Source of the DNA: Candidatus Electronema sp. JM
GTDB taxonomy: Bacteria > Desulfobacterota > Desulfobulbia > Desulfobulbales > Desulfobulbaceae
Direction: 5' to 3'
DNA length: 64,000 nt
Assembly: GCF_048287415.1 (NCBI RefSeq)
Contig: NZ_JBLWEN010000001.1
Location: 88,790 to 152,789, forward strand
Of the stretch, positions 27,051 to 43,653 are shown piece by piece (position 1 is the stretch's first letter; the number at the start of each line of letters is the position of its first letter). The notes below the pieces were generated by a model that was given only the letters and a program-made list of their open reading frames with translations, was not told the origin of the DNA and made no database searches. The translations under genes and the position numbers were made by a program.

Positions 27051-28052
27051 ATGGCGCTTTTTGAAGGATACGAACGGAGAATCAGCAAGATCAACGCGGT
27101 GCTGGCCGAACACGGGATCAAGGATTTGGATGCGGCCAAGCAGCTCTGTTTAGATGCGGGCGTGGATGTCTATGCCATTGTCAAGGGCGTGCAGCCGATC
27201 TGCTTTGAGAACGCCTGCTGGGCCTACATCGCCGGTGCGGCCATTGCTTTGAAAAAAAGGCAGAAAAAGGCGGTGGAAATTGCCTCCACTTTGGGCATCG
27301 GCTTGCAGGCCTTTTGCATTCCCGGCTCAGTGGCCGAAAACCGCAAAGTGGGCATTGGTCACGGCAACTTGGCCGCCCGGCTCCTTAGCGAGGAAACAAA
27401 GTGCTTCGCCTTTCTCGCCGGGCATGAGTCCTTTGCCGCTGCGGAAGGCGCCATCGGCATTGCCAGATCCGCCAACCGGGTGCGCACTGAGCCGCTGCGG
27501 GTCATCCTCAACGGCCTCGGCAAAGACGCGGCCTATATCATCTCGCGCATCAATGGCTTCACCTATGTGAAGACACAGTACGACTACTACAGCGGCGCAC
27601 TCAACATTGTTGAGGAAAAGGCGTTTTCCAGCGGCGAGCGGGCCAAAGTGCGCTGCTACGGCGCGGATGACGTGCGCGAGGGCGTGGCCATCAACCACTT
27701 GGAGCTGGTCGATGTGTCCATCACAGGCAACTCGACCAACCCGACCCGCTTCCAGCATCCGGTGGCCGGAACGTACAAGAAGGAATGCCTTGAGCAGGGC
27801 CGGAAGTATTTCTCGGTGGCTTCCGGCGGCGGCACAGGCCGGACGTTGCACCCAGACAACATGGCCGCTGGTCCGGCTTCTTACGGCATGACCGACACCA
27901 TGGGCCGGATGCACAGCGACGCGCAGTTCGCCGGCTCGTCCTCCGTGCCTGCGCATGTCGAAATGATGGGCTTTATCGGCATGGGCAACAATCCGATGGT
28001 TGGCGCATCAGTGGCGGTGGCAGTGGCCTTGCAGCAGGCGGCGGGGCAGTAA
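27051..28052 (+). CDS. GGGtGRT-family protein
   Basis: It contains the eponymous motif (FSVASGGGTGRTLHPDNMA). It starts 6 nt after the upstream NifU-like gene. Confidence 0.75.
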   Translation: MALFEGYERRISKINAVLAEHGIKDLDAAKQLCLDAGVDVYAIVKGVQPICFENACWAYIAGAAIALKKRQKKAVEIASTLGIGLQAFCIPGSVAENRKVGIGHGNLAARLLSEETKCFAFLAGHESFAAAEGAIGIARSANRVRTEPLRVILNGLGKDAAYIISRINGFTYVKTQYDYYSGALNIVEEKAFSSGERAKVRCYGADDVREGVAINHLELVDVSITGNSTNPTRFQHPVAGTYKKECLEQGRKYFSVASGGGTGRTLHPDNMAAGPASYGMTDTMGRMHSDAQFAGSSSVPAHVEMMGFIGMGNNPMVGASVAVAVALQQAAGQ

Positions 28053-28272: not shown

Positions 28273-31200
28273 ATGCGCATCCTCAAACTCCGCCTGCGCA
28301 ACCTCAACTCCCTTGTCGGCGGGTGGGAGATTGACTTCACCCACCCGGCCTTTGCCGACGGCATCTTCGCTATCACCGGCCCAACCGGCGCAGGCAAGAC
28401 CACTATTCTCGATGCGCTCTGCCTCGCGCTGTATGGCCGCACGCCGCGCTTGGATAAAGTGACGAAGCGCGGCAATGAGATTATGTCTCGGCAGAGCGGC
28501 GAATGCTTTGCCGAGGTGGAATTCTCGGTCGGCAAGGAGGCCCGCCGCTGCTCCTGGAGCCAAGGCCGCAGCCGGAAAAAGGCGGACGGAGAACTTCAGC
28601 AGCCGAAGCGCGAGCTGTCGCTGCTCAACGGCGAGATTCTTGCCAGCAGCGTCAGCAGCGTGGAACAGCTTGTTGAGGAATGCACCGGCATGGATTTCGA
28701 CCGCTTCACCCGCTCCATGCTGCTCGCGCAGGGCGGTTTCGCCGCCTTTCTCCAAGCCTCGCCGGATGAGCGTTCGCCGATTTTGGAGCAGATCACCGGC
28801 AGCACAATTTACAGCGAGATATCCATCCGTGCGCATGAACGCTGGAAACGCGAAAACGACCGCCAGAAGCAGCTTGAGGAACAGGCGGCGGCCTTCCAGC
28901 TTCTCAGCTTGGAAGAAGAGGACGTGCTGCGGCAGGAGCTGGACAGGCTGCGCGGCGAGGTGCGCGTTCAGGGCGACAGGCTGACGCAGCTTGATGCCGC
29001 TCTGAAATGGCTGAAGCGACTTGCTGATCTACGCCAAGACGTGGCAGCGGTCAGCAGGGAGCAGGCCGGGCTGGCTGCGGCGCAAGAGCAGTTTGCCGCC
29101 AGCGAGCAGCGGCTGCGTCTGGACGGACTGGCCCTGCTTGTAGCTGGGGAGCACGCCGCCTTGGCCGCCCGGCGTAAGCAGCAGGCGGATGATCTCAGTG
29201 CAGCGGCAATCTTACGCCGCAGCCTGCCGGAGCTGGAAGCCGCGCTCAAGGCGGCAGACGGGCGGTTGGTCAGCAGCGGCGATGCGCTTGCAGCAGCCAA
29301 AGCAGCGCAGGAGACAGGCCGCGTCCTTATCACCAAAGTGCGCGAGCTGGATTTTCGCTTGCAAGAGAAGCGGGCCGCGCTGCGCAAGCAGGACGAAGCC
29401 TGCGCCGAATTGCGCCGGAAAAATGCTGCTGATCTCGCCGCCTGCGGGAAGCTGGAGCAGGAGCTGCGGCGTGTTCAGGATAGTCAGCAGCAGAGTGCGG
29501 CTTATCTGGCGAAACATGCGGCAGACGAGCGGCTGCTGACAGACTTGACCGGTCTCGGTCAGCAATTGAAGCAGCTTGGCGAGCTGGCCTGGCGGCATGA
29601 GGATGTCAGGCTCGCAGCGGCACTTGCTGAGAAAACCGCTGCCGAGGCGGCGCAGTTCTGGCAGGGCAAAGCTGCGGCGCGGCGCAAGGCGGATGAGCTG
29701 CTTGCCGAAGTGCAAGAGGCACGGGCGGCGGCGGACAACGAATTTGCTCAGCTCCTGCAAGGCCGCCGGGCTGAGGAGCTGTGGCACGAGCAGAACGCCT
29801 TGATCACGCTGACCAAGCTGCTGGCCCAAGCAGATATGCTGGCCAAGGAGCGGGCTGATCTGCATGAGCAGCAGGTTGCGAACAGCGTGGCCAAACAGGT
29901 GCTGGCAGAGACGCTGCGCACGCTGCGGCAGCACTGCAATGCGGCACGGCAGGAGGAGGAAGTCCGGCGGATTGAAGCGGACTTTGCCAAGCGCGTGCTC
30001 AGTCTGGAGGAGCAGCGGGCGCGGCTTCAGGCCGGACAGCCGTGTCCGCTCTGCGGCTCGCCGGAGCATCCCTACGCACAGGGCGGTTTACCTTTGCTGC
30101 ATCAGGCCGAATTGGCCGCGCAGGCAGCCGCTGCGGCCTTGCGGCAGGCTGAGGAAGCTCTGAACAAGGCGGACAAAGAGCAGGCGCGGTTAGATCAGGC
30201 TGCCCAGCATCTCGATGAGCGTCTGACTGAGAAGAACACGGCCATGCAGGCACTTCAGCAGCAGACAGCCAACTGCTGCGCCGAGCTGGCTCTGGTGCCG
30301 GAGCAGCAGCTGTCGGAAATTGAGCAGCGGCTGCATGAGAATCGGCAGACCGTGCAGGCCGCTGAGGCATTGACCAAGAAAATCAGCCAGCTTGGCAAAA
30401 CGCTGGAGCAGCGGCAGGCCGCCTGCATCCAAACTGCGCAGGATGAAAGCAAGGCCGCTGCTGCGCGGGATAAGGCGCAGGAGGCGCGGCAGCGTCTGGC
30501 TGAGGAAGAGCGCAATTTAGCAGAAGATGTGGCGGTAAAGCTGCGGGCGGCGCAAACTGAGCTAGCGGTGTACGGCTGCGCTGAGTTCTCGCTGCGGGAG
30601 ATTGACCAAACCGCCATTGCGTTGACCACCCGCCGCGACACATGGCAGCGGCATCAGCAGCAGCGTATTGCGGCGGAGCAGAAGATTGCCGGGCTTGATA
30701 CAGACGTAAAGGTGCTGCGGGCGGGCATTGAGCAGCGGAACAGGCAGCTTGAGCACGAGGAGCCGCTGCTGCAAGCAGGACGGCAGGAGGCGGAACGGTT
30801 GGCCGCTGAACGGGCCGCGCTCTTTGCCGACAAGCAGCCGGAAGCGGAAGAAAAGCGGCTGGCTGAGGCGGTCAAAGCGGCGGAGCAGGCCGTTGAGCAG
30901 GCGCAGGCGGCGCAGCAGCGACAAGAGAAAACGCTGCATCAGCAACACGCCCTGATCAGCAGCCGGGAGCGTGCCGCTGCGGACAGGATGCCGGAGCTGG
31001 CGCGGCAGGAGGCAGCCTTTGCCGAACGGCTGCGGGCGGGCGGTTTTGCCGATGAAGCGGCTTGGCAGACGGCGCAGCTTGCTGAGGCGGAGCGGGCGGC
31101 CTTGCGGCGGCAGGCGGAAGAGCTGCGTGACCGCCGGACACAGCTTGACGAGCGGCGGCGCGACCGCGAAGCCCGCTTGGCCGAGGAGGAGCAATTAGCC

Positions 31201-31884
31201 CTCACCGACTTGGATCAAGCGCGGCTGGAGGAGGAGCAGGCCGGGCTGACGCTCGCCAGCCGCCGGACAGCGGAGCAGATCGGCTCGCTGACGCAGCGGC
31301 TTGCTGACAACCAGGAGCGGCGCGGCCAGCAGAGCGGCCTGCTCCGTGAGCTGGCGGCGCAGAAAACAGAATGCCTGCGCTGGAAAAGCCTGCATGACCT
31401 GATCGGCTCGGCGGACGGCAAAAAGTACCGCAACTTTGCTCAAGGACTGACCTTTGAGCAGATGGTGCTGCACTCCAACCGCGAGCTGGCCCGCATCCAC
31501 AGCCGCTATCTGCTCCTCCGCGATCCGCAGCAGCCGCTGGAGCTGAGTGTGGCTGATTTCGAGCAGGCGGGCGAAGTCCGCTCCGTCAAAAATCTTTCCG
31601 GCGGCGAGAGCTTCATGGTCAGCCTCGCTCTGGCCCTCGGTTTATCAAGCATGGTCGGCGGCAAGGTGGAATCCCTCTTTCTTGATGAGGGCTTCGGCAC
31701 CTTGGACGACGACGCGCTGGACTCCGCCTTGGCCCGGCTGGCCGAGCTGCGCGGCGAAGGGCGGCTGATCGGGGTGATCTCGCATGTGGCCGCGCTCAAG
31801 GAGCGGATTGCCTGCCAGATTGAGGCCCTGCCCGGCAGCGGCGGGCGGAGTGTGCTGAAAGGGCCGGGCGTGCGGCGGCTGTGA
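28273..31884 (+). CDS. sbcC: SbcC/Rad50-family ATPase with zinc hook. No sbcD is adjacent.
   Basis: There is an N-terminal Walker A (ITGPTGAGKTTILDALCLALYG). A 900-aa coiled coil carries a CxxC hook (GQPCPLCGSPEHPY). The C-terminus has the signature and Walker B / D-loop (LSGGESFMVSLALALGL...LFLDEGFGTLDD). Confidence 0.9.
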   Translation: MRILKLRLRNLNSLVGGWEIDFTHPAFADGIFAITGPTGAGKTTILDALCLALYGRTPRLDKVTKRGNEIMSRQSGECFAEVEFSVGKEARRCSWSQGRSRKKADGELQQPKRELSLLNGEILASSVSSVEQLVEECTGMDFDRFTRSMLLAQGGFAAFLQASPDERSPILEQITGSTIYSEISIRAHERWKRENDRQKQLEEQAAAFQLLSLEEEDVLRQELDRLRGEVRVQGDRLTQLDAALKWLKRLADLRQDVAAVSREQAGLAAAQEQFAASEQRLRLDGLALLVAGEHAALAARRKQQADDLSAAAILRRSLPELEAALKAADGRLVSSGDALAAAKAAQETGRVLITKVRELDFRLQEKRAALRKQDEACAELRRKNAADLAACGKLEQELRRVQDSQQQSAAYLAKHAADERLLTDLTGLGQQLKQLGELAWRHEDVRLAAALAEKTAAEAAQFWQGKAAARRKADELLAEVQEARAAADNEFAQLLQGRRAEELWHEQNALITLTKLLAQADMLAKERADLHEQQVANSVAKQVLAETLRTLRQHCNAARQEEEVRRIEADFAKRVLSLEEQRARLQAGQPCPLCGSPEHPYAQGGLPLLHQAELAAQAAAAALRQAEEALNKADKEQARLDQAAQHLDERLTEKNTAMQALQQQTANCCAELALVPEQQLSEIEQRLHENRQTVQAAEALTKKISQLGKTLEQRQAACIQTAQDESKAAAARDKAQEARQRLAEEERNLAEDVAVKLRAAQTELAVYGCAEFSLREIDQTAIALTTRRDTWQRHQQQRIAAEQKIAGLDTDVKVLRAGIEQRNRQLEHEEPLLQAGRQEAERLAAERAALFADKQPEAEEKRLAEAVKAAEQAVEQAQAAQQRQEKTLHQQHALISSRERAAADRMPELARQEAAFAERLRAGGFADEAAWQTAQLAEAERAALRRQAEELRDRRTQLDERRRDREARLAEEEQLALTDLDQARLEEEQAGLTLASRRTAEQIGSLTQRLADNQERRGQQSGLLRELAAQKTECLRWKSLHDLIGSADGKKYRNFAQGLTFEQMVLHSNRELARIHSRYLLLRDPQQPLELSVADFEQAGEVRSVKNLSGGESFMVSLALALGLSSMVGGKVESLFLDEGFGTLDDDALDSALARLAELRGEGRLIGVISHVAALKERIACQIEALPGSGGRSVLKGPGVRRL

Positions 31885-32900: not shown

Positions 32901-33006
32901 TTTCCAAAAAAAATCGGCATGTTGCACAGGACACTTCCTTTCGGAAGGACATATCCTGCTAATTCCTCTGCACACTGGTGAGGAGGATGGAACATGGATA
33001 GTGAGC

Positions 33007-35025
33007 TTACAGGCCGCGAACTGGCGGCAAGGAAAGGGCAAGCCGGAAGCCCAAGTCGTCGCTGCGGTTGTCCGGCGAGTACCAGTAGCGGAACGCCGCC
33101 CGCACGAACAAGGGTGAGTCGCCCCAGCTACCGCCGCGAAACACGCGGCTCGAGCCTTTCTCAGGGCCAATCGGATTGCCCTTAGGACTGACAGCGTAAT
33201 AACCACTGTTGTACCAATCCGCGCACCACTCCCAGACATTGCCGTGCATGTCGTGAAGGCCCCAAGCGTTGGCCTTCTTTTCACCAACTGGATGGGTTGT
33301 ATTGCCGGAATTTTTGCCGTACCAAGCATAGTCCTGAAGCTGCGCCTCATCATCACCAAAGCACCAAGCCGACTCACTGCCTGCCCGGCAGGCATATTCC
33401 CACTCCGCTTCGGTGGGGAGGCGATAGGTGTGACCTGTTTCCTGACTCAGCCATTGACAGTAGGCAACCGCATCGTCCCAGCTTACATTGATCACCGACC
33501 GCTGCCCTCTGCCCCAGCCCCTGTTTTCTTTACCTGTGGCCTCACAGAAAACATCGTACTCGGCAAAGGTGACTGGATAGCGGCCAATGGCAAAGCTGTC
33601 CAGTTCCACCTCATGCACCGGTCGTGCATCGTCACTGCCATTGCCCTGAATATCTCCCATGCGGAAACGACCGCCGCGTATAAGCATCATCTTTATTCCG
33701 AGTCCACCGCCAAAAGACTCCGGCAAAAGACAAGGTAAGGCAATCTGATCAACGTGCCTGAATATCCCATCAGCAAGATCAACAAAGCGCACGAGCTGAT
33801 CCGTGGCCCGCAGCGGTGTTTGTTCAGCCAACTGCTTCTGCACGATGCCCCAAGCTAAGAGGAACTCCTGCACCGTGTAATGGCTGAAGCGGAAGGCGCG
33901 GTCAGAGTTGCGGTTGAGCAAAGATCGTCCGCCCAGCTCGAACTGCTCCAGCCAGGCTATGTTCGCGTCCGCACGGATGAGCTGCTTCAGCTCATCCTCT
34001 GAGAGTACCCGCGTGCCCTGCCGCTGCATCCGCTCCGCAATCCGCAGGCAGGCCAGAAAGAGTTCCTTGCGCTCAGGCACCTGCTCGCCTTGATGCTGCT
34101 CCCGCAGCTTGCGCACTTCCCGGTCAAGCCATTCCTCCACCGTGTAGGTGTTCCAGTCTTGGCGGCGGCAGTCCTTGGCCAGCAGCTTGTCAATATGCTG
34201 AAGGAGCATGGGCCGCATCCGCAAATCCTGCATGTGCTTGAGCAGACAGTCCGCCTTGGCCCGCTCATCCCTGATCTTCCCAGCCTGAAAGCACAGACGA
34301 TGGTGCCAATGCAAGGGCAGCTTGCGCTCAATGAAGTCCTGCACTTGGGCATCGGTGAAGGGGGAAAGATACAGCACCGGGCAGTGATAGCCGGACAGCA
34401 CCCTGATCTCCGGGCGGCCAAAGCGGTCTGGCTCCATCTCCGGGAAGAACTGCGTCCGGCTGGAGATGAGCACCCGGCGGAAATCCTCGCTGGCGCGCAG
34501 CAGCTCCAGCAGGCGGTCGCGGATGCGCTTCCATGCCTGCGGGTCTTCGTCCAAGGCATCGAGCAGCAGGACGGTCCCGCCCTTGTTCGGCAGAGCCTGC
34601 ACGCGCTCCAAGGTGTCTTTCCCCAGCTTGAACAGGGCGCAGCCATGCCCCTTGGGCCAGAAGCTGGTCAGGTGCATGAGCTTGATCATCAGCAGCAGCG
34701 AGGTCTTGCCCATCCCAGCATCAGAGAGGATGAACATCTGGTGGCGGCCATCCTTCTCCAAAGGCAGACCGCCCTGAAAGAACTCGTTGATCCGCTCAAA
34801 GGCAGGCTGCCGGGCCGCAGAGAGCAGGTCGTCCTGCTGCACATCCGCCGGGTTGCGGTCTTGCAGGAACGGCTCAATGTAGAGGCCGCGCAGGGTTTCA
34901 GGATCAACGAACTCGTCCCGCAGACGGTCAAGCTCCTGCTTCCGCTCGCCGGTCAGTTGCGTGAGCCGCTTCCAAAGATCCTTAATCCACGCTGGCTTGA
35001 CAAAGCTCAGGACTTCCAAGGCCAT
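33007..35025 (-). CDS. STAND NTPase with an N-terminal NACHT-like P-loop domain fused to a C-terminal formylglycine-generating-enzyme (FGE-sulfatase/SUMF1) fold
   Basis: Walker A is LSDAGMGKTSLLLM and Walker B is VLLLDALDED. The C-terminal approximately 250 aa have FGE hallmarks (RGGRFRMGD...RPVHEVELDSFAIGRYPVT..EY, WDDAVAYCQWLS, RLPTEAEWEYACRAG, HGNVWEWC, RGGSW). Confidence 0.8.
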   Translation of the reverse strand: MALEVLSFVKPAWIKDLWKRLTQLTGERKQELDRLRDEFVDPETLRGLYIEPFLQDRNPADVQQDDLLSAARQPAFERINEFFQGGLPLEKDGRHQMFILSDAGMGKTSLLLMIKLMHLTSFWPKGHGCALFKLGKDTLERVQALPNKGGTVLLLDALDEDPQAWKRIRDRLLELLRASEDFRRVLISSRTQFFPEMEPDRFGRPEIRVLSGYHCPVLYLSPFTDAQVQDFIERKLPLHWHHRLCFQAGKIRDERAKADCLLKHMQDLRMRPMLLQHIDKLLAKDCRRQDWNTYTVEEWLDREVRKLREQHQGEQVPERKELFLACLRIAERMQRQGTRVLSEDELKQLIRADANIAWLEQFELGGRSLLNRNSDRAFRFSHYTVQEFLLAWGIVQKQLAEQTPLRATDQLVRFVDLADGIFRHVDQIALPCLLPESFGGGLGIKMMLIRGGRFRMGDIQGNGSDDARPVHEVELDSFAIGRYPVTFAEYDVFCEATGKENRGWGRGQRSVINVSWDDAVAYCQWLSQETGHTYRLPTEAEWEYACRAGSESAWCFGDDEAQLQDYAWYGKNSGNTTHPVGEKKANAWGLHDMHGNVWEWCADWYNSGYYAVSPKGNPIGPEKGSSRVFRGGSWGDSPLFVRAAFRYWYSPDNRSDDLGFRLALSLPPVRGL

Positions 35026-35193: not shown

Positions 35194-38100
35194 ATGAATA
35201 CTACCCAGCCGCCGCCCATCGCCTCCAAGGCTCTTGAAGCCAACTTCCAGCAGACCGCCAGTGCCGTTGCAATTTCTCCCCGCTACGCCCCGCTGCGGGA
35301 GGCCGTGGCCCGCTATCAGGGCTTGTCCGCCCGGCTGGAGCACCTGCTCTACGAAATCAGCCACCCGTTCCGCAACTGGCAGCTCATCATCGCCGAGCTG
35401 CGGCCCTTTGTCCTCAAGAATCTCAATCATTACCTCAGCCATGCGCAGGGGCCGGACTGCTTCGCCCTCTTCAGCTCGATCTTCCTGGACGCGCTGAAGG
35501 ACTCGCGCAAAAACAGCAAGGTCATCGCCCTGACCATGGAGGCCATGCTCGCCTATGCGGACAAAGTCGTCGCCTCGCTCAAGCCGGACATGCTGCCGCT
35601 CTACGGCCCGCAGCTCAACGCTTTTTTCGAGCAGCTCGCCCGCTTGGACGAGATAGACAGCAGCCTGATGGCGCACATGGTGCAGGGCCATCATCCGATG
35701 AAGAAGATGGCGGCCCAGCTCATCAGCCTGAGCCGCAGCGCGGGCGCGGAAACCTTCTCCTGCGCTGCGGCGGCCAAGCTGCTGCGGAAAATCCTCGAAA
35801 TCAACTATGCCTGCTGGCTGGGCGAAGAGGATCCGCAGCCTTGGTTCGAGTCGCAGTGCGGCGGCGGCAGCTGCTGCGGTCAGGCCGGAACCGACTTGGC
35901 GGCGATCTCTCACAGCCGGATGCGCGAGCATCTGACCGCGCTGGAGCAGATCAGCATTGACGAGGATCCGCAGGAGGCCCTCAGCCGCATCTTGGAGCTG
36001 CCCGCGCATATCGACATCGTCCGCCTCTACCGGGAAATCCCCGGCAAATTAGGCGAACATGCTGCGGACACCGACCCGGCGGCGGTGGAGAACCGGAAGC
36101 TCTTCTTCCTCTTCCGCATCATGGAGACCTCCGGCCTCTCGCTCATTCATGAGGAAACCCTGCGCGAGATCAACCGTTCTTTGGTGCAGCTCATCCGCCG
36201 TCAGAGCTTTGACGAGATTGCCGAGTTTTTCACCACCGCCTTTCACTTGCTCAAGGCCAATGTGCGCAAATATCCGCACACTTCGCTGCAATGTATTCAG
36301 GTCATCGGCGGTGAAGTCTTCCAGCGCGGCAACTCGCGTTTAGTTGAAGCCTTCCTCTTCGAGACCGTGCGCTTCGGCTTCCAGCACGCCAATGTCATGG
36401 GCGTGGACGAGGACTGGCAGCCGATCAGCAACCCGGCGCATTTGGCCAACATCCGGGTCTGGCTGAACTTGATCATGCAGGAGCCGAAATGGTGCTCGAC
36501 GCTCTTCTCGGCCCTGATCATCAACCTGCGTCTCTCCGGCACCTGCGTCAAAGACACCGACCTCTTCCAGCGCGACATCACCCAGCTCCTCAATCATCCC
36601 ATCGGCCCGATCTATAACTTGGCCAAGCAGTTCAGCAAGCTGATGCCGGTCTTCTTCAATGAGATCGGCGCGGAAGGCGAGCTGCGCGATGTCTCCACCG
36701 AATTGGATGAACTGCACAAGCGGCACGACGTGCTCATTCATTTTCTCCGCAAGCAGTCGCACGTCGAGTCGTCGAACCTGATTGTCGGCTTCATCCGGGC
36801 CATCTACAGCTTCTGGCTGACCTTGGACAAGAAACCGCTGGCCGCCTATCTGCCGGAAGAAATCCTCAGTCAGGTGGCGAGCAGCGGCCCTTATGTGGAC
36901 GAGCTGCATCTGCTCGCTCAACAGGTGCGCGAGGAATTGGAATACAGCACAGTGGACGAGCTGCTGACCTGGGACGAGGCGGAGCGGAAAGACTGGCTGC
37001 TGCGCCAGAGCGACATTTCCGCTGGCGAGCGCAAACGCTTTGACCTGCTGGTGCGGATGTTCAAGCTGCTCCACCACAAATACAGCTTGGGCATGGATGA
37101 GCTGCGCGGTCAGCTCGAGCACGCGGTGCAGAACGGCTTCCCGGAAATGACCGAGCTGCTGGAGGTTTTGGAGCACGGCGACACCTGGACCTGCTTGGAC
37201 GCAGTGCTGACGCAATTAGAGCAGCTTAAAGAGACCATCCTCAGCGACAAGAAATTTGCGCCGAAGGAGGAAATTTACTACAAGCGGCACATCGCGGTGG
37301 ATATTCCTTCCGTCTATGGCCGCTATTCGGAGCGCAAATTTGACGCGCTCGGCCTGACCTTCCGCTTGGAGAGCCTGGCCAATATTTATTTGGAACGGCT
37401 GAACCGCTCGATCAATCTCGGCTTCATCACCCAAGCCACCTTCATCGGCATCGCCAAAAGCCTCAGCCTCTCTCTCCGCGCCCTGAAGATTGACGGCATC
37501 AGCAGCCGCCGCTTGGACACCTACACCAGCCTGCTCAACTCCTCGATCAGCATCAAACGCTTCACCTACACCCAGCACTTGGACATCTTCCGTGGGTTGT
37601 CAGAAGGGGTGAAGGATGTGATTTATGCCTATTACACCAATATTCATCAGAACAATCTCTCGGTCATCATTCCCCAGATCGGCGGCGAGAATCTGCTGAC
37701 CAAAAACCGGACGCTCTGGGACGAGAAGGACATGTCCTCGACCGTGCACCGCCTTTCCGAGTCCTTCTTCCGCGACCTGATCGCAGCCACCTTCGGCCTC
37801 CAGCATTTGGACAACTTCATCACCCGCATCATCCACACGCTGGAGGCGCAGCGCGACATTCTCGACGAGCAGACCCTCGACCTGCTCATGACCTACAACC
37901 CGGAAATCGCCATCTCCTCGCTCTACAACGAGAATCCGCTCACGCACAACCTGATTCATCTCGGCAACAAGGGCTTCAACCTCATGCTCTTGGCCAACGA
38001 CGGCAAGCCGGTGCCGCCCGCCTTCATCATCACCACTGAAATATTCCGCTGCTGGCAGGCGGTGCAGGGCTTCACCAAGGCGCGGGAGGAGTTTATGCAG

Positions 38101-39444
38101 CGGCTGCACACCTCCATCACCGGCTTGGAGGAGCGCACAGGCCGCCGCTTCGGCTCGCCGGAAAACCCGCTGCTGCTTTCGGTGCGTTCCGGCGCGGCGA
38201 TTTCCATGCCCGGCATGATGACTACGATCCACAACGTCGGCCTGAACGAGGATTTGCTGGAGGAGCTGTGCGTCAAGCACCCGGAGCAGGAGTATTTTCT
38301 CTGGGACACCTACCGCCGCTTCCTGCAATCTTGGGCGATGGGCGAAGGCATGGGCCGCGAGGAGTTCGGCGCGCTGATGAACGCGCACAAGAAACGCTAC
38401 GGCAAGCGGCTGAAACGCGAATTCAGCCCGGCGCAGATGCGCGAGCTGGCTCTTGAATACCGCAACGCCATGCGGCGGCACGGATGCAGCGCGCCGGAAG
38501 ATCCTTGGCTTCAGCTGGTGCGGGCGGTGGAGATGGTGCTGGATTCGTGGAGCACCCATAAAGCCCGCCAGTACCGCCACCTGATGGCCGTCTCCGACGA
38601 CTGGGGCACAGCAGTGATTGTCCAGACGATGGTCTATGGCAACCGCAATCAGCAGTCCGGCAGCGGCGTGCTCTTCACCGCCCATCCCTACCGCAAGGTG
38701 CGGCGGGTCGCGCTCTGGGGCGATTACGCCTCCGGTGATCAGGGCGAGGACATCGTCTCCGGCCTTGTCACCAGCTATCCGATCTCGGTCGAGCAGGCGG
38801 AGCTGGACGGGCGTTCGGTCGAGCAGAGCCTCGAACGCCGCTTCCCGGAGATCTACGAGCAGCTCCTCAGCATCTCCCGCGACTTGGTGTACACTAAAGA
38901 ATGGAACCCGCAGGAGATTGAGTTCACCTTTGAAAGCCCTGACCCGGACGATCTCTACGTGCTCCAGACCCGCGACATGATCACCATCAAGAAGAAGGAG
39001 CATTTCCGGGTCTTCGAGGAAAGCGAGGCGCAGCAGGCGGCGGTGCTCGGCAAGGGCATCGGCGTGAGCGGCTCCGCCATCTCCGGCCTGGCTGTCTTCA
39101 CCGACGAAAACATCCGCCAGCTCCGCCACGAGCAGCCGGACATGCCGCTCATCCTCCTCCGCCAGGACACGGTGCCGGAGGACATCCGGGAAATCTCCAT
39201 GTGCGACGGCCTGCTCACCGCGCGCGGCGGCCAGACCTCGCACGCTTCCGTGGTCGCAACGCGCTTGGAGAAAACCTGTGTGGTCGGCTGCCGCGACTTG
39301 CAGGTCTTCGAGGACAAGGAGCAGGCGGCCATCAACGGCCTTGTGATAAAATTCGGCGACCCGGTCTCCATTGACGGGCGCAGCGGCCTCTTCCTGCGCG
39401 GCATCCATCCGACGCGAGAAGAGGTGCATATTTTGCCGCTGTAG
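35194..39444 (+). CDS. Giant 1416-aa protein. An unknown approximately 900-aa N-terminal region is followed by PPDK-type ATP-grasp (PPDK_N) and PEP-utilizing phosphohistidine (swivel) domains. It lacks a PEP/pyruvate-binding TIM barrel.
   Basis: The C-terminal third reads LGNKGFNLMLLANDGKPVPPAFIITTEIF...NPLLLSVRSGAAISMPGMM...HLMAVSDDWGTAVIVQTMVYGN...RGGQTSHASVVATRLEKTCVVGC, the conserved His motif. The ORF ends 60 aa later. The N-terminal 900 aa have no motif I recognise. Confidence 0.75.
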   Translation: MNTTQPPPIASKALEANFQQTASAVAISPRYAPLREAVARYQGLSARLEHLLYEISHPFRNWQLIIAELRPFVLKNLNHYLSHAQGPDCFALFSSIFLDALKDSRKNSKVIALTMEAMLAYADKVVASLKPDMLPLYGPQLNAFFEQLARLDEIDSSLMAHMVQGHHPMKKMAAQLISLSRSAGAETFSCAAAAKLLRKILEINYACWLGEEDPQPWFESQCGGGSCCGQAGTDLAAISHSRMREHLTALEQISIDEDPQEALSRILELPAHIDIVRLYREIPGKLGEHAADTDPAAVENRKLFFLFRIMETSGLSLIHEETLREINRSLVQLIRRQSFDEIAEFFTTAFHLLKANVRKYPHTSLQCIQVIGGEVFQRGNSRLVEAFLFETVRFGFQHANVMGVDEDWQPISNPAHLANIRVWLNLIMQEPKWCSTLFSALIINLRLSGTCVKDTDLFQRDITQLLNHPIGPIYNLAKQFSKLMPVFFNEIGAEGELRDVSTELDELHKRHDVLIHFLRKQSHVESSNLIVGFIRAIYSFWLTLDKKPLAAYLPEEILSQVASSGPYVDELHLLAQQVREELEYSTVDELLTWDEAERKDWLLRQSDISAGERKRFDLLVRMFKLLHHKYSLGMDELRGQLEHAVQNGFPEMTELLEVLEHGDTWTCLDAVLTQLEQLKETILSDKKFAPKEEIYYKRHIAVDIPSVYGRYSERKFDALGLTFRLESLANIYLERLNRSINLGFITQATFIGIAKSLSLSLRALKIDGISSRRLDTYTSLLNSSISIKRFTYTQHLDIFRGLSEGVKDVIYAYYTNIHQNNLSVIIPQIGGENLLTKNRTLWDEKDMSSTVHRLSESFFRDLIAATFGLQHLDNFITRIIHTLEAQRDILDEQTLDLLMTYNPEIAISSLYNENPLTHNLIHLGNKGFNLMLLANDGKPVPPAFIITTEIFRCWQAVQGFTKAREEFMQRLHTSITGLEERTGRRFGSPENPLLLSVRSGAAISMPGMMTTIHNVGLNEDLLEELCVKHPEQEYFLWDTYRRFLQSWAMGEGMGREEFGALMNAHKKRYGKRLKREFSPAQMRELALEYRNAMRRHGCSAPEDPWLQLVRAVEMVLDSWSTHKARQYRHLMAVSDDWGTAVIVQTMVYGNRNQQSGSGVLFTAHPYRKVRRVALWGDYASGDQGEDIVSGLVTSYPISVEQAELDGRSVEQSLERRFPEIYEQLLSISRDLVYTKEWNPQEIEFTFESPDPDDLYVLQTRDMITIKKKEHFRVFEESEAQQAAVLGKGIGVSGSAISGLAVFTDENIRQLRHEQPDMPLILLRQDTVPEDIREISMCDGLLTARGGQTSHASVVATRLEKTCVVGCRDLQVFEDKEQAAINGLVIKFGDPVSIDGRSGLFLRGIHPTREEVHILPL

Positions 39445-39495: not shown

Positions 39496-40212
39496 CTATT
39501 GAGCAGTGCCTTTTCGAGGAATCTTCAGCCGTAGTCTTGGATAAATTAAGTTTGGGTTATCCATCAACTGAGGATGCTTCTCTTTATTTGCCAAAATAAT
39601 TTCTTGAACAGAAACGTGGTGTCGTTCAGCGATCTTTCCTAAACAATCGCCTTCCATTACTTGATAGCAGTCTTTGCCTAAATAGCAATCAACAGTCTCC
39701 TTTAGTTCTGTGATATTTTCTGGATTGGCATAGAATATGTAGACTGGCGCGAAAATCAAAGAAACAGCGTACCATCTTTTTTTACGAAATATCCATCTAA
39801 TGTTTATTGTTTTTTCATAAATTTTTTTTATTTTGCTTTTGCAATTTTCAATAAAAATTATGCCGCCGCTCAAGATGCCATCTATTTTATAGACAAAAAC
39901 AGGCAGATTCGACCTGTATTTCCGTATCAATCTATTTCCATATCCTTCCATGTAAAGAAGGATAAAAAACAATGTAAAAACACAGAATGCTATTATTTTA
40001 AATAAAATCATTAAAATCCAAGGAAGCACCCGGAGCGCAAGCCAAGGAATCAACAACATCAATACGAAAAGAATAACAAACGGGAGTGCAACGGATAGCC
40101 ATTCTGATCTTGATGCAGAAAATAGCTGTTCGGAAATAACTTGGAAGAAAAGAATACCTTTTATAAGGTATTCATCTTGAATTTGGTTTAACAGGCTATT
40201 CAGGCGTTCCAT
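39496..40212 (-). CDS. Membrane protein with a C-terminal LysM domain (last gene of the AT-rich operon)
   Basis: It has 2-3 TM helices (LPFVILFVLMLLIPWLALRVLPWILMILFKIIAFCVFTLFFILL). The C-terminal LysM is CYQVMEGDCLGKIAERHHVSVQEIILANK...NLIYPRLRLKIP. The gene is visibly AT-rich. Its start overlaps the upstream gene by 17 nt. Confidence 0.7.
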   Translation of the reverse strand: MERLNSLLNQIQDEYLIKGILFFQVISEQLFSASRSEWLSVALPFVILFVLMLLIPWLALRVLPWILMILFKIIAFCVFTLFFILLYMEGYGNRLIRKYRSNLPVFVYKIDGILSGGIIFIENCKSKIKKIYEKTINIRWIFRKKRWYAVSLIFAPVYIFYANPENITELKETVDCYLGKDCYQVMEGDCLGKIAERHHVSVQEIILANKEKHPQLMDNPNLIYPRLRLKIPRKGTAQ

Positions 40213-41437
40213 CTCTCCTTATTGATTCAGGGTGTATATTAATATCCGCACTTTCTTCTTGTTGATCCTGTTGTTTTTCCTCGCTGGATGACTTTTCTCC
40301 AATAAGAGCAGCTCCTTGGTCTGACAATCTTCCTACCTTCTGCACAAGTGATTTGGCAATATCCTCAAACCTCCATTCGCCGATCACACCTTTTTCAACG
40401 AAAATTTTTAATATTTCTATACAAGTTGAATTCTCTTCAACACGCATCTTCTCTTCCCTGTCTATTTGCTGTTTGACAAATGAAAGCAATTCTCTGTCGT
40501 TTGGATTTTCTGGATTGCATATTGCAATAATTCCGCGCCAATTACCAATTGACAGGAGCGGCGACAGCAGCGTTTCCCTATTTAGCCTATGATTGAATTC
40601 AATTCGCTGCATTTCAAGCTGCTTCTCAAATTCAATCTGCTTGATTCGCATCTCTGCTTCCATTTTCTTCAATTCAAAATTCATACTTTGTTCCAGCAGG
40701 ATAGTTTGCCTATAAAGCTCAATTTTCCTATCCTTAAATAGCAGCTCCTGTCTCATGGACTCTATCTCCATTTTCTGCTGCATCAGCCGTTTTTCCATTT
40801 CAGCCTTTATGGCATCTACCGAGAATTGCTCCTGAATGATTTTTTCTTGATTTTTTGCATCTATCGTCCCCAGCTTTCCATCAATCAGCCTTTTGCTGAT
40901 GGATTCATGTGGCGACAGCGTAACGAATGGAGGACGGCTTAACTTGAATCCTAAGTCATGAATTTTATTGCCATATATCAATTGACTTTTAAGCTCCTCA
41001 ACAACAGCTCGTTCTGCCTGCGATGCCTGCTCGTTCGCATAGTTTCGACAGATAGGCCGGATTATATCAAGAGCTGACTCTTTTAAAAAATCCCGAATGT
41101 CTCTCCTTCCATTCTGCACAATAAGCAATGGATTATCTATGCAATAAGTCAATGTGACTTCAGCTTGAAAAGGGAGTTCGTCAGCACAAGGAATACTTAC
41201 TGAAAAAAGAATTGAATATTCCGACAGATCAACTTCATAATACACCTTATATGTGCCGATGAGAATGTCGCCAGCTGTCGGCCCGCCATTTTTTCCTGCG
41301 TAAACAACAATTGGCGGACAATTTTCTCCAAGAAAGACATGTGCCTTTCCGAATTTCGGCGATTCAGGCCGTTTGAAGGAAAATTTTTCCAGTTTTCTCT
41401 CAATAACAAGCGGATATTCTTCAGGAGCGAAATCCAT
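40196..41437 (-). CDS. SPFH/band-7 (flotillin-like) domain protein with a long coiled coil and a C-terminal unknown domain
   Basis: The segment AEVTLTYCIDNPLLIVQNGRRDIRDFLKESALDIIRPICRNYANEQASQAERAVVEELKSQLIYGNKIHDLGFKLSRPPFVTLSP matches the SPFH-core consensus pattern. It is followed by an approximately 100-aa heptad-rich E/K/Q coiled coil. No TM segment is present. Confidence 0.5.
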   Translation of the reverse strand: MDFAPEEYPLVIERKLEKFSFKRPESPKFGKAHVFLGENCPPIVVYAGKNGGPTAGDILIGTYKVYYEVDLSEYSILFSVSIPCADELPFQAEVTLTYCIDNPLLIVQNGRRDIRDFLKESALDIIRPICRNYANEQASQAERAVVEELKSQLIYGNKIHDLGFKLSRPPFVTLSPHESISKRLIDGKLGTIDAKNQEKIIQEQFSVDAIKAEMEKRLMQQKMEIESMRQELLFKDRKIELYRQTILLEQSMNFELKKMEAEMRIKQIEFEKQLEMQRIEFNHRLNRETLLSPLLSIGNWRGIIAICNPENPNDRELLSFVKQQIDREEKMRVEENSTCIEILKIFVEKGVIGEWRFEDIAKSLVQKVGRLSDQGAALIGEKSSSEEKQQDQQEESADINIHPESIRRDGTPE

Positions 41438-42929
41438 TTTTTATCTCTGTTAAAATTTTCAAGGAAGTTTCAGATTCATCAGACCATTTTTCTAAGTACG
41501 CGCAAATGCAATTGCGATTTCTTGGAATACGAGAGACATCATATAAAATTCTTGCGAGAGTTTTCCAGAATTTTCCGTGCATGTCAATATGTTTCAGCCA
41601 CTTGAATATTTCAGTAAGAGCAAGTCGTCTGATTGGCTCCGAATCAAAAACTCTTTGCAGCAGACGGACAATGAGTTCTTCCGTCTTTGCTTTCTCTTCC
41701 GCAAGAATAAGAAGGCTCGGATGCTGGGAGCCGTCTTTAATTGACCAAGAAATACGCATCAAATCTGAAAATATAAGCAGAGACAAGCGATGAAGCGAGG
41801 ATTTTTTCTCCTGCCGTCCCCATTGGTTAAGAGATTGCAGAACGAGAACCGACGAACTTGATTGCTTGAAGAGCCATTTGACAGCATAAGCTATATCTTT
41901 AAAGAGTATTCCGTTGCCTGAATTTGCAATATTTCTTAAATCTTCGAGAGCTTGTTCAGGAAAATGCTGACCAAGACAAGAGCAATATGCGAAAATTGCA
42001 GTTTGATTCAATTTGACTGAATTTTTCAGACTACTCCAATAATGAATACTATTTAAAGAAAGTTGAGCAACATCTTCGTTTTCATCATATAAAACAACTG
42101 CAAGCGCAAATCCAACTAATTTTTGGATAGATTGACTTTCTGATTTTGCCCAAGGCAACAATATTTGGTCACGAACCGGTTGAAATTCATACCGTGCCAG
42201 CCGACCCGCTGTTGCTGCTGCTCTCAGTCTGATTTGAGAATTTTCATGTTTCCCTAACTCAAACAACCATTGCAGCATTGCTTTTGCATAAACATCACGT
42301 TCATGCCAGATGTGATGCAAAACAGTTTCTGGAGTTTCTTGGTCATCAAATGCAACTTTCTTGACAGGACTTTTGCCGCATTCGGTAACTTCGCAATCAT
42401 TTTCAAGATGCGCTGATATGTCTTTAAGCCACTGACTCCTTTTCTTTTCCTCTATCTCTTCGTCCAGATTAGAAGTATTTTCTATCTCCGCTTCCTTCCG
42501 CGACTGCAACCGAATGATATTTTGCAAATACTGGCTCGCCTCATCAACTAATCGGTAATTGCAGCCATTAAACACTGACAGTGAAATGATAAAACTGCGC
42601 CTGCTTTTGCAGCTATCAAATATAGATTCGATAGAAGAATCAAACGATTTATCTTTGTCCGCTTGCGTTTTTTGGCCAGAATAATTGCTCTGATCTCCGG
42701 CGATTATCGAGCCAGTATTATTTATATTGCTGTTTGATGCATGAAACCCTCCAGTGTAATTATAATTTTTAATTATTTGAATAATAGTTCTGCTGTTCTC
42801 TGTAAAATCATCTGTTTCGTTCGTATGTATTTTATTGTATTTTATAGATTCTTCAACAGATTTTATACCGTCATCTTCAGAAAGATGATCAATTTTTTCA
42901 AAGAAATTTTCTTCGTCGCCTTGTTCCAT
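41421..42929 (-). CDS. Hypothetical 502-aa protein with a C-terminal HEAT/ARM-like helical repeat region and an acidic N-terminus
   Basis: It is tightly coupled to its neighbours (a 14-nt gap upstream and a 17-nt overlap downstream). It carries no family motif I recognise. The C-terminal half is predicted all-alpha with periodic L/A/W patterns. Confidence 0.45.
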   Translation of the reverse strand: MEQGDEENFFEKIDHLSEDDGIKSVEESIKYNKIHTNETDDFTENSRTIIQIIKNYNYTGGFHASNSNINNTGSIIAGDQSNYSGQKTQADKDKSFDSSIESIFDSCKSRRSFIISLSVFNGCNYRLVDEASQYLQNIIRLQSRKEAEIENTSNLDEEIEEKKRSQWLKDISAHLENDCEVTECGKSPVKKVAFDDQETPETVLHHIWHERDVYAKAMLQWLFELGKHENSQIRLRAAATAGRLARYEFQPVRDQILLPWAKSESQSIQKLVGFALAVVLYDENEDVAQLSLNSIHYWSSLKNSVKLNQTAIFAYCSCLGQHFPEQALEDLRNIANSGNGILFKDIAYAVKWLFKQSSSSVLVLQSLNQWGRQEKKSSLHRLSLLIFSDLMRISWSIKDGSQHPSLLILAEEKAKTEELIVRLLQRVFDSEPIRRLALTEIFKWLKHIDMHGKFWKTLARILYDVSRIPRNRNCICAYLEKWSDESETSLKILTEIKNGFRS

Positions 42930-42942
42930 TTTTGATCTCTCT

Positions 42943-43353
42943 TCATTTTTTATTTATTTGATCCCTGCCTATAAAAGTCCCTTCATTGACAAAGGTGGAA
43001 TTTTTGATAAGCACACCTCCTGTTTGCACAATTCTTTCTACCTTTACCCCATAAAGCCGTGCGATATCTAACGCTAATTCCTGATCTTCTTGGAGCAGCT
43101 TTTTCACTTGAAAGTGCAGAGTCTTCTGCGCATCTTCTTCTGAAGGATCCCGTACCACATCTTCTGCCGCCATTTTCACACCTTCAACTCTTGCAGAAGA
43201 ACGGGAAGAAATTTTTGTCCAGACAGCCTTGGCCGTCTCCCATCCGTCAGAACCTATTTTTTCTAACGCTCCTCCCAGTATCTGTCCCCCACCGCTCAAC
43301 AGATAAGGAAGTACTGGCACTAAAGAAGAAACAACCATTTCAGCAAGTTCCAT
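42943..43353 (-). CDS. Hypothetical 136-aa protein, first gene of the AT-rich operon
   Basis: The ORF has a Gly-rich N-terminus (LLSGGGQILGGALEKIGSDGWE). It is followed within 14 nt by the next gene. No homology is recognised. Confidence 0.4.
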   Translation of the reverse strand: MELAEMVVSSLVPVLPYLLSGGGQILGGALEKIGSDGWETAKAVWTKISSRSSARVEGVKMAAEDVVRDPSEEDAQKTLHFQVKKLLQEDQELALDIARLYGVKVERIVQTGGVLIKNSTFVNEGTFIGRDQINKK

Positions 43354-43534
43354 AGTTTTTTCTCAATGTCTCAAGTTGTTCCAGCAGCCAGAGCAATTCA
43401 GGCTTGACAAGGGCAGGCTGCCGATGAATACTGCGCTGCTCAGTATGTGATCACCTGCAATAAATTTCAAGTATTTTAAAAGGGCTTTTGAGCTGCCTTG
43501 CTGCCTGTCTCGGCGGTGCAACAGCGGAGGCCGT

Positions 43535-43592: not shown

Positions 43593-43653
43593 GTCGAGGA
43601 AGTTTTCAAATTATCTAAAAACTGAAATACTACAGCTTGCATGTCCGGCAGCT

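What the first reader, a model, noticed from the sequence alone, without database searches (positions are those of the whole stretch)
33007..35025. NACHT-type STAND NTPase with a C-terminal FGE-sulfatase (formylglycine-generating enzyme) domain
A P-loop NACHT/STAND module has Walker A GMGKTS and Walker B LLLDALDED. It is fused to a complete FGE/SUMF1-like domain instead of the usual repeat-type sensor (TPR, WD40 or LRR). Bacterial NACHT proteins are increasingly recognised as antiphage NLR-like sensors. An FGE fold in the sensor or effector position is unusual. FGE domains in signalling proteins are often non-catalytic ligand-binding modules. The gene is divergently arranged with the giant PPDK-like gene, 168 bp apart.
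Basis: partly seen in the sequence, partly recalled or inferred. Interest (0 to 1): 0.6.

Follow-up and report, generated by a model that had tools for sequence, protein, structure and literature searches.

The report
Hypermutated NLR-like sensor in cable bacterium
This cable-bacterium gene encodes an NLR-like ATPase switch whose C-terminal 'FGE' domain is not an enzyme but a binding domain whose tip has been rewritten by a diversity-generating retroelement; the protein class is already described in other multicellular bacteria, but not in cable bacteria.

The parts
33007..35025 (-). Whole gene: 672-aa cytoplasmic STAND NTPase with a C-terminal FGE-fold sensor domain
   Evidence: ORF and translation. 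A 100% identical protein is deposited for Ca. Electronema sp. JM. AF2 model has mean pLDDT 77.5. No membrane segment: maximum Kyte-Doolittle hydropathy 1.16.
34741..35025 (-). Conserved N-terminal segment (aa 1-95): three short helices and a strand ahead of the P-loop, with no recognisable effector domain
   Evidence: No Pfam hit. Many invariant residues across 23 relatives. It is the true N-terminus in most of the 150 best representatives. A sub-clade (L059, L071, L075, L077) has a different N-terminus. Rare members carry TIR or DUF4062 in front of it.
34321..34740 (-). Nucleotide-binding domain: Walker A 34699-34725, Walker B 34543-34572, sensor-1 ISSRTQFF 34444-34467
   Evidence: Motifs read from the sequence and invariant in alignment A1. 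Sub-threshold hits to NACHT, nSTAND3 and NPHP3_N and to NCBIfam antiphage EruA NACHT at E = 1.1e-5. In relatives, nSTAND3 hits 9 of 23 and NACHT 3 of 23.
33736..34320 (-). Helical and winged-helix domains of the STAND module, including the FRFSHYTVQEFLLA motif (33853-33894)
33037..33693 (-). FGE-sulfatase-fold (C-type-lectin-like) domain, non-catalytic
33041..33157 (-). DGR-type variable region (VR), aa 623-662, KGSSRVFRGGSWGDSPLFVRAAFRYWYSPDNRSDDLGFRL
   Evidence: Inverted codon-position bias: 45/45/23% against 8/7/22% in the NTPase part. It aligns ungapped and in register with the Electrothrix EH2 template repeat, with 19 of 29 mismatches at TR adenines. Of 30 TR-adenine columns, 29 vary among three Electronema copies, against 12 of 86 other columns, Fisher p = 1.1e-16. 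Window codons at template AAC positions are NNC.
32940..33040 (-). Conserved 3' flank of the VR (about 70 nt, running past the stop codon at 33007-33009) with a short GC inverted repeat GCCGC/GCGGC at 33013-33028; a candidate homing or target-recognition region
   Evidence: It is conserved among three copies in unrelated genomic contexts, whereas upstream similarity begins only at the RBS. The stem is predicted in the DNA fold. Its function was not tested.
32905..32960 (-). GAAA-loop hairpin followed by a T-run; probably the gene's terminator
   Evidence: DNA fold and sequence. It is not conserved in L001 or L003.

Best explanation
The gene encodes a cytoplasmic NLR-like receptor. An N-terminal NACHT-type STAND ATPase acts as the nucleotide-driven oligomerisation switch. 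It is fused to a C-terminal FGE-fold (C-type-lectin-like) domain that is a ligand-binding sensor, not an enzyme. The ligand-contacting end of that domain (nt 33041-33157) occupies the position of the FGE active-site loop and is a variable region written by a diversity-generating retroelement. In that process a reverse transcriptase copies a template repeat with adenine-specific errors, and the cDNA replaces the VR. This recodes about 15 AAC-type codons and so changes binding specificity. The cassette (HRDC accessory protein, RT, TR) is not in this 64-kb window. This copy is therefore a remote target diversified in trans, or a target whose retroelement has been lost. Shown here: the domain identities, the absence of catalytic residues, the VR and its adenine-specific diversification history, genuine cis DGR cassettes next to homologues, and a DGR cassette with a closely matching template in cable bacteria. 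Inferred: ligand binding drives ATP-dependent oligomerisation, and the output is an anti-invader or abortive response through a separate partner, since no effector is fused. The inference rests on TIR and DUF4062 fusions in rare family members and on published bNACHT and Avs work.
For: Fold and motifs. No catalytic cysteines. VR-restricted divergence among ~90%-identical Electronema copies with inverted codon-position bias. Nine metagenome family loci have TR/VR pairs with 85-100% of mismatches at template adenines, and RTs lie beside 11 loci. Six of 13 well-flanked FGE-bearing loci have a cis cassette. A search with a predicted TR peptide returned a TR ORF from Ca. Electrothrix sp. EH2 as top hit, inside an FGE-target/HRDC/RT/TR cassette. 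This TR aligns in register with the window VR. Its adenines predict 29 of 30 variable columns in Electronema, p = 1e-16. A second heterologous TR (L096) gives 21 of 35 mismatches at A, p = 4e-8. Recent VR-only change in cable bacteria: two Electrothrix loci are 99.6% identical over 18 kb, and 18 of their 19 in-gene differences lie in the 140-nt VR zone, with no RT within 10 kb. Immune-type modularity of the NTPase clade, with TIR, DUF4062, pentapeptide and WD40 fusions. Published framework: PMC7159879, PMC10907252 and 10.1101/2022.07.19.500537.
Against: No RT or TR lies in the window or within 10 kb of any of six cable-bacterium homologues. Electronema's own template was not found. The genome scan found only a known VR, and 8 fixed differences separate the Electronema VRs from the EH2 template. 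In the one closed genome where both could be compared (Electrothrix GW3-4), the TR carries an internal deletion. It does not match the STAND-FGE gene 1.16 Mb away with significant adenine bias: 6 of 22 mismatches, p = 0.19. Trans-diversification is therefore not demonstrated. There is no fused effector, no conserved neighbour, no PADLOC hit and no defence-island context, so an immune role is an inference from homology. A sister paralogue clade in Electronema has a frozen VR, which shows that family members can work with a fixed specificity.
Confidence: 0.75

Rival explanations
1. Orphaned or fossil target. The VR was diversified by a DGR in the past, but Ca. Electronema sp. JM no longer has a matching RT/TR. 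The protein now works as a fixed-specificity STAND sensor.
For: No RT or TR in the 64-kb window or near two other Electronema copies. The genome-collection scan found no template in the E. aureum GS representative. A sister paralogue clade shows a frozen VR under purifying selection. The GW3-4 template is internally deleted, so DGR decay does occur in cable bacteria.
Against: Three ~90%-identical Electronema copies have almost completely different VRs, which implies diversification after or during the divergence of these strains. Electrothrix strains 99.6% identical over 18 kb differ almost only in the VR. Remote targets diversified in trans are documented in other multicellular bacteria (PMC10907252). 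Only 64 kb of the genome was visible, and the scan pattern was strict.
Confidence: 0.3
2. Non-immune tunable sensor. The DGR-diversified STAND protein tunes a regulatory or self/non-self (kin or filament recognition) pathway rather than sensing phage or other invaders.
For: There is no fused effector and no defence-gene neighbourhood. In Electrothrix the gene sits in a conserved housekeeping neighbourhood. The window also encodes other signalling-type repeat proteins, namely LRR, LRR-Roc and TPR. No member of this exact clade has been tested experimentally, and Dore et al. state that the sensor idea is untested.
Against: Rare clade members carry TIR or DUF4062 N-terminal domains. Co-targets of the same DGRs are TIR-FGE, KAP-FGE and caspase-FGE proteins. 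Tested bacterial NACHT and Avs proteins are antiphage (own knowledge).
Confidence: 0.2
3. Catalytic FGE, EgtB or PvdO-type enzyme, as in the database name 'SUMF1/EgtB/PvdO family nonheme iron enzyme', regulated by an ATPase domain and acting in sulfatase maturation or small-molecule biosynthesis.
Against: Both catalytic cysteines of FGE are missing, and the corresponding loop is hypervariable. All NCBIfam enzyme matches are far below cut-off, for example PvdO at 129 bits against 500. There is no DinB-type iron-binding domain of EgtB, no sulfatase gene and no pyoverdine or ergothioneine gene nearby. An active site cannot tolerate the observed scrambling.
Confidence: 0.02
4. The C-terminal hypervariability comes from ordinary positive selection or gene conversion among paralogues, with no retroelement involved.
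For: Several paralogues per genome exist, including tandem pairs, and these could act as conversion donors.
Against: Variable columns coincide with template adenines in 29 of 30 cases, against 12 of 86 for other bases. Window codons at template AAC positions are NNC. The boundaries are sharp and identical to genuine TR/VR pairs in homologues.
Confidence: 0.02

Closest known systems
DGR-diversified STAND-NTPase/CLec 'putative antigen sensors' of multicellular bacteria (Dore et al. 2024, PMC10907252; Kaur et al. 2020, PMC7159879)
   Same: A central STAND NTPase is fused to a C-terminal FGE-type CLec domain carrying the VR. The hosts are multicellular bacteria. DGRs often have two targets, with alternative front ends such as TIR, KAP NTPase and peptidase. 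Remote or incomplete loci occur. Homologues of the window gene show all of this.
   Different: The published examples use NACHT (Pfam-positive) or nSTAND1 modules, often with EAD adaptors or neighbouring peptidases. This clade scores best against nSTAND3 and has no recognised adaptor or effector. Cable bacteria (Desulfobulbaceae) are not in those papers or their supplements. The window copy has no cassette within 64 kb.
Treponema denticola TvpA (PDB 2y3c), the FGE-fold DGR variable protein
   Different: TvpA is a lipoprotein-type surface protein without an NTPase. Here the domain is the sensor of a cytoplasmic STAND ATPase.
Bacterial NACHT (bNACHT) and Avs antiphage NLR-related proteins (Kibby et al., 10.1101/2022.07.19.500537; Gao et al. 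2022, own knowledge)
   Same: The NBD-HD-WHD STAND core has NACHT-type motifs and a C-terminal sensor. Kibby et al. list FGS domains as an antigen-receptor-type C-terminus. There is a weak hit to the NCBIfam NACHT antiphage protein EruA.
   Different: There is no fused N-terminal effector, no PADLOC model hit, and the Pfam NACHT match is below threshold. The tested bNACHT and Avs proteins use fixed repeat or short sensors, not DGR-diversified ones. No experimental data exist for this clade.
Formylglycine-generating enzymes (human SUMF1, S. coelicolor and T. curvata FGE)
   Same: Same fold and the conserved scaffold motif WGLxDMxGNVWEW.
   Different: The catalytic Cys pair is absent, the active-site loop is hypervariable, and there is no sulfatase partner. 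It is not an FGE in function.

Membership tests
STAND NTPases, NACHT clade | P-loop NTPase with Walker A GxxxxGK[ST] and a Walker B of the hhhhD[GA]hDE type | tested here: met
   SDAGMGKTS (aa 101-109) and VLLLDALDED (aa 152-161). G104, G106, K107, T108, D156, E160 and D161 are invariant in 23 relatives.
STAND NTPases, NACHT clade | Match to the Pfam NACHT model (PF05729) above its gathering score | tested here: not met
   E = 0.082 at 13.2 bits against 26.7. Only 3 of 23 relatives reach E < 0.01.
STAND NTPases, NACHT clade | NBD followed by a helical domain and a winged-helix domain with a conserved His motif; fold closest to NLR NACHT modules | tested here: met
nSTAND3 (Pfam PF20720) | Match to the family model above its gathering score | tested here: not met
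   The window protein scores 13.9 bits against 27.2. Still, 9 of 23 relatives hit at E < 0.01, best 1.9e-5, and several database relatives carry precomputed PF20720. It is the nearest sequence family, but the window protein itself is sub-threshold.
Catalytic formylglycine-generating enzymes | FGE-sulfatase fold | tested here: met
Catalytic formylglycine-generating enzymes | Conserved catalytic cysteine pair (Cu-binding) in the C-terminal loop | tested here: not met
   In the alignment to S. coelicolor FGE, the first Cys falls in a deletion and the second aligns with Leu. There is no Cys in the last 60 residues.
Catalytic formylglycine-generating enzymes | Genomic association with sulfatase genes | tested here: not met
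   No sulfatase domain appears among about 40 window ORFs scanned or in relatives' neighbourhoods.
DGR target (variable) proteins | CLec/FGE-fold domain with the variable region at its C-terminal end | tested here: met
   The VR at aa 623-662 lies between RGGSW and LGFR, the same position as in TvpA and in nine genuine TR/VR pairs of homologues.
DGR target (variable) proteins | VR differs from a template repeat almost only at template adenines | tested here: inconclusive
   The cognate Electronema TR was not found. Against heterologous cable-bacterium and metagenome TRs, 19 of 29 and 21 of 35 mismatches are at A. Of 30 TR-A columns, 29 are variable among Electronema VRs, p = 1e-16. This is strong indirect evidence, but it is not a same-genome TR/VR pair.
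DGR target (variable) proteins | Reverse transcriptase, accessory gene and TR present in the same genome | not testable with these tools
   They are absent from the 64-kb window. The rest of the JM genome could not be read. Cassettes exist in Ca. Electrothrix sp. EH2 and GW3-4.
DGR target (variable) proteins | Sequence variation confined to the VR among otherwise near-identical copies | tested here: met
   Codon-position bias is 45/45/23% in the VR against 8/7/22% elsewhere. In Electrothrix, 18 of 19 in-gene differences lie in the VR zone of loci that are 99.6% identical. Seven of 8 variable columns lie in the VR in a cluster at 90% identity or more.
DGR target (variable) proteins | IMH-like element and hairpin directly downstream of the VR | tested here: inconclusive
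   About 70 nt after the VR are conserved among unlinked copies and hold a 5-bp GC inverted repeat. No functional or comparative proof was obtained.
Known antiphage defence systems (PADLOC models; NCBIfam EruA) | Match to a curated defence-protein model | tested here: not met
   PADLOC gives no hit. EruA scores 23.9 bits against a cut-off of 1000.

The most novel reading that the evidence does not exclude
Cable bacteria keep a dispersed repertoire of stand-alone NACHT-FGE receptors embedded among housekeeping genes. These receptors are rewritten in trans by a single HRDC-type DGR whose cis target is a caspase-FGE fusion. That would be a genome-wide, retroelement-driven 'antigen-receptor' diversification system in centimetre-long multicellular filaments, possibly with the caspase-FGE protein or a partner as the executioner. 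The evidence that does not exclude this: VR-only differences between 99.6%-identical Electrothrix loci with no RT within 10 kb; an Electrothrix DGR template that predicts 29 of 30 variable positions of the Electronema VRs; and the caspase-FGE/HRDC/RT/TR cassette in GW3-4. The one direct same-genome test (GW3-4 TR against the remote P0022 VR) was negative.
Probability: 0.3. Interest if true: 0.7.

Novelty: new member of a known kind. Interest (0 to 1): 0.4.

Why it matters
If the reading is right, cable bacteria join cyanobacteria, purple sulfur bacteria and other multicellular prokaryotes in using retroelement-driven hypermutation to vary the ligand-binding tip of NLR-like receptors. That supports the published idea that multicellular lifestyles select for diversifiable intracellular sensors. 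There is also a practical point. The protein is annotated in databases as a 'SUMF1/EgtB/PvdO family nonheme iron enzyme', which is misleading because it has no catalytic residues. The stand-alone arrangement, with no RT or TR within tens of kb, makes this family a useful test case for trans-acting DGR homing. The contrast between a hypervariable clade and a frozen-VR sister clade in the same genomes offers a natural experiment on when diversification is kept or abandoned.

Tried and rejected
1. Local DGR. BLAST of the gene's 3' end against the whole window and a repeat search found no TR. tblastn with four DGR RTs found no RT in the window or in L001-L005.
2. Genome-collection scan with the 30 invariant VR bases returned only the E. 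aureum GS VR that I had used to build the pattern.
3. A homologue search with a DGR RT (L014) gave 8,000 hits, none named as a cable bacterium in the top 120. One 'Thermodesulfobacteriota' RT (L091) turned out to be a canonical TIR-nSTAND1-FGE/bAvd/RT DGR of a different NTPase clade.
4. Trans-targeting test in the closed Electrothrix GW3-4 genome. The TR is internally deleted, and the STAND-FGE VR 1.16 Mb away shows no significant adenine bias. It is not supported there.
5. The TR-like ORF P0317 (L096), which carries the Electronema-type 'VRAANR' signature, is not closer to the window VR than the EH2 template.
6. Functional link to the divergent PPDK-like gene is rejected, because no relative shares that neighbour.
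7. Catalytic FGE or sulfatase maturation is rejected (no sulfatase).
8. Sequence-profile search of the family against PDB found no STAND match, only FGE-fold chains. The NACHT assignment needed the structure model.
9. The paralogue P0078 from the same genome could not be located in the contig index.
10. The GAAA-loop hairpin at about 32930-32960 was considered as a DGR target hairpin. It is not conserved in the other copies and is followed by a T-run, so it is more simply a terminator.
Full report
OBSERVATION. The finding is present at the stated coordinates. An ATG-started ORF of 672 aa runs from 35025 to 33007 on the minus strand. Pfam gives a very strong FGE-sulfatase match over aa 445-663 (E = 3.9e-60, 204 bits). 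The divergent neighbour, 168 bp away at 35194-39444 (+), is a 1416-aa protein with PPDK_N and PEP-utilizers domains in its C-terminal third. The window comes from a cable bacterium: an identical protein is deposited for Candidatus Electronema sp. JM under the name 'SUMF1/EgtB/PvdO family nonheme iron enzyme'.

THE NTPase MODULE. With the N-terminal 441 aa alone, NACHT scores 13.2 bits (cut-off 26.7), nSTAND3 13.9 bits (27.2) and NPHP3_N 15.2 bits (24.8). NCBIfam gives only a faint hit to the NACHT antiphage protein EruA (23.9 bits against 1000), and PADLOC gives nothing. A family profile finds no STAND chain in the PDB by sequence. Among 23 relatives, nSTAND3 is hit by 9 and NACHT by 3.

THE KEY FEATURE: A DGR VARIABLE REGION. 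In an alignment of 23 relatives, the roughly 30 residues between RGGSW and LGFR are scrambled even among Electronema copies that are about 85-90% identical overall, while both flanks are invariant. At the DNA level, three such copies were compared: the window, E. aureum GS locus L001 and Electronema V4 locus L003. Codon positions 1/2/3 vary at 45/45/23% in aa 630-660, against 8/7/22% in the NTPase part. That is the opposite of neutral drift.

To test whether the family is a real DGR target, I fetched 80 metagenome loci and screened them for imperfect repeats whose mismatches sit on adenines of one copy. Nine loci have textbook TR/VR pairs: 81-93% identity over 89-143 nt, with 85-100% of mismatches at TR adenines and the VR exactly at the 3' end of the family gene. 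DGR-type RTs lie beside 11 loci. Of 13 FGE-bearing loci with at least 2.5 kb on both sides, 6 have a cassette. These DGRs use an HRDC-domain accessory protein and often have a second target, such as TIR-FGE, KAP-NTPase-FGE or caspase-FGE. Aligned to these templates, the window protein differs at the template Asn (AAC) codons, and its codons there are NNC.

A CABLE-BACTERIUM DGR. I predicted the template peptide for the Electronema and Electrothrix lineages by placing Asn at the variable positions, then searched with it. The top hit was a 73-aa 'hypothetical protein' of Ca. Electrothrix sp. EH2. Its contig (L092) carries an FGE-domain target, an HRDC protein, an RT and this ORF, which is the TR. 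TR against cis VR is 88.8% identical over 134 nt, with 13 of 15 mismatches at adenines. The same TR aligns ungapped and in register with window 33157-33041, with 19 of 29 mismatches at adenines although A makes up only 26% of the TR.

The strongest test is independent of how the TR was found. Of the TR's 30 adenine columns, 29 vary among the three Electronema VRs. Of its 86 non-adenine columns, 12 vary (Fisher p = 1.1e-16). Eight fixed differences indicate that Electronema has, or had, its own slightly different template. A second heterologous template (L096) gives the same signal, with 21 of 35 mismatches at A (p = 4e-8). Recombination or ordinary positive selection cannot produce this pattern.

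IS DIVERSIFICATION RECENT, AND IS IT IN TRANS? In Electrothrix the gene sits in a conserved housekeeping neighbourhood in three genomes. Two of these loci are 99.63% identical over 18 kb. There are 47 differences across 15.9 kb outside the gene and 1 in the gene outside the VR zone, but 18 within a 140-nt stretch at the VR, including an in-frame AAC indel (protein view). No RT lies within 10 kb. Likewise, the window (64 kb) and five other cable-bacterium loci lack any RT or TR. This argues for remote cassettes.

The one direct test I could make was negative. In the closed genome of Electrothrix GW3-4, the RT (same 90% cluster as EH2) sits next to a caspase-FGE target at about 1.55 Mb, and two tandem STAND-FGE genes lie 1.16 Mb away. 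That TR carries an internal deletion and shows no significant adenine bias against the remote VR (6 of 22 mismatches, p = 0.19). Trans homing in cable bacteria is therefore plausible but not shown, and the window copy may be orphaned. A sister paralogue clade in Electronema (about 46% identical, also present in strain JM) has a VR that is more conserved than the rest of the protein: 0-1 variable columns of 30, against 57-110 elsewhere. So both diversified and frozen receptors coexist.

SURROUNDINGS. Similarity among the three Electronema copies starts at the ribosome-binding site and ends about 70 nt after the VR, past the window gene's stop codon. That conserved tail holds a short GC inverted repeat (33013-33028) and may be the homing or recognition region. 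This was not tested. A GAAA-loop hairpin plus T-run further downstream looks like a terminator. The PPDK-like gene and the HAD hydrolase flanking the gene are not found next to any relative, so the divergent arrangement carries no functional signal. The window is otherwise ordinary chromosome, with gyrA, intein-containing gyrB, histidine kinases and glycosyltransferases, plus a few repeat-type signalling proteins.

MECHANISM. Shown: the domain identities, the loss of catalytic residues, the VR and its adenine-specific history, cis cassettes in homologues, and a matching DGR in cable bacteria. Inferred from established knowledge of STAND/NLR proteins and DGRs: the FGE-fold tip binds a ligand; binding releases the ADP-locked STAND module to exchange nucleotide and oligomerise; and a partner recruited by the conserved N-terminal segment executes the response. 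The DGR periodically rewrites about 15 codons to change specificity. I put 0.75 on this overall reading. Most of the uncertainty concerns the biological role (immune versus other sensing) and whether diversification is still active in this strain.

COMPARISON AND NOVELTY. NACHT proteins with FGS/FGE C-termini are explicitly described as 'antigen receptor-type'. FGE-sulfatase sensors appear in a 2026 STAND survey. DGR-diversified STAND-CLec sensors in multicellular bacteria are the subject of Kaur et al. 2020 and Dore et al. 2024. What is new here is limited. This is the cable-bacterium instance; no paper in the library links DGRs and cable bacteria, and none of the Dore supplements mentions them. 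The NTPase clade is nSTAND3-like, the arrangement is stand-alone, and the database name is misleading. Verdict: a real feature, partly correctly interpreted, and a new member of a known kind. Interest is moderate (0.4).

Noticed in passing
window 22337-26110 (-): The DNA gyrase subunit B gene is interrupted by an intein. The product is 1257 aa, with intein N- and C-terminal splicing regions at aa 454-889. gyrA lies at 14707-17247.
   Followed up: no
window 35194-39444 (+) and 60661-63261 (+): There are two proteins with PPDK_N plus PEP-utilizers (swivel) domains but no PEP/pyruvate-binding barrel. The first is 1416 aa, and its N-terminal 900 or so residues match no Pfam or NCBIfam family. A 122-nt stretch upstream of the second gene (60529-60650) is 79% identical to 53399-53520, which lies inside the LRR-Roc gene.
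   Followed up: partly
window 1905-2960 (+), 53278-54363 (+), 20377-21864 (-): Eukaryote-like signalling repeat proteins are present: a pure LRR protein (69-nt DNA repeats), an LRR-Roc GTPase (ROCO-like) and a TPR protein (120-nt repeats). These types are enriched in multicellular bacteria.
   Followed up: no
window 18000-22000, 40000-44000 and 48000-50000: Low-GC islands (0.40-0.51 against about 0.58) are present. The first holds a PD-(D/E)XK family transposase (18579-19523) and the TPR gene. The second holds a LysM protein, an SPFH/Band7 protein and a 502-aa ORF with no family match.
   Followed up: no
window 43542-43585 and 49006-49049: A 44-nt sequence is repeated at 84% identity about 5.5 kb apart. 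One copy lies upstream of the minus-strand sugar-transferase gene (43654-45081) and the other overlaps the annotated start of the minus-strand histidine-kinase ORF (49026-50525). It may be a shared regulatory element.
   Followed up: no
window 55782-58539 (+): Two adjacent ORFs, one of them DUF202, contain many copies of a 21-nt periodic repeat encoding an R-T-x-(L/M)-A-type motif.
   Followed up: no
window 28273-31884 (+) and 27051-28052 (+): There is an SbcC/Rad50-like ATPase of 1203 aa with only weak PADLOC similarity to mad3, LmuB and DndD N-termini. Next to it is a GGGtGRT-family protein (643 bits).
   Followed up: no
L093 (Ca. Electrothrix sp. GW3-4, CP147990.1, about 1.55 Mb): The cis target of the cable-bacterium DGR is a caspase (Peptidase_C14)-FGE fusion, followed by HRDC, RT and TR. 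The TR has lost the '...RNTPDNR...' segment relative to strain EH2, so the element may be decaying.
   Followed up: partly
Proteins P0078, P0103, P0076 and their 90% clusters (Electronema JM, JC, V4, VV, TJ): A sister paralogue clade of the window protein has a VR-equivalent segment (DSSAKF..SSYFRFCLSPGLRIIRAGFRVALG) that is more conserved than the rest of the protein. It looks like a 'frozen' receptor.
   Followed up: partly
L088 against L089 (Electrothrix), VR zone: Besides substitutions, the two VRs differ by in-frame indels, including one AAC codon. This is unusual for canonical DGR homing, which normally preserves length.
   Followed up: no
L086 and L095 (Electrothrix communis and GW3-4): Two STAND-FGE family genes lie in tandem in a conserved position near rnpA, yidC and mnmE, that is, close to the chromosomal origin region.
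   Followed up: no
L087, L088 and L089, 6-9 kb upstream of the family gene: A conserved cluster of two TGase_elicitor-domain proteins and a caspase-like Peptidase_C14 lies upstream of the Electrothrix STAND-FGE orthologue. It may be a partner or effector, or a coincidence.
   Followed up: no
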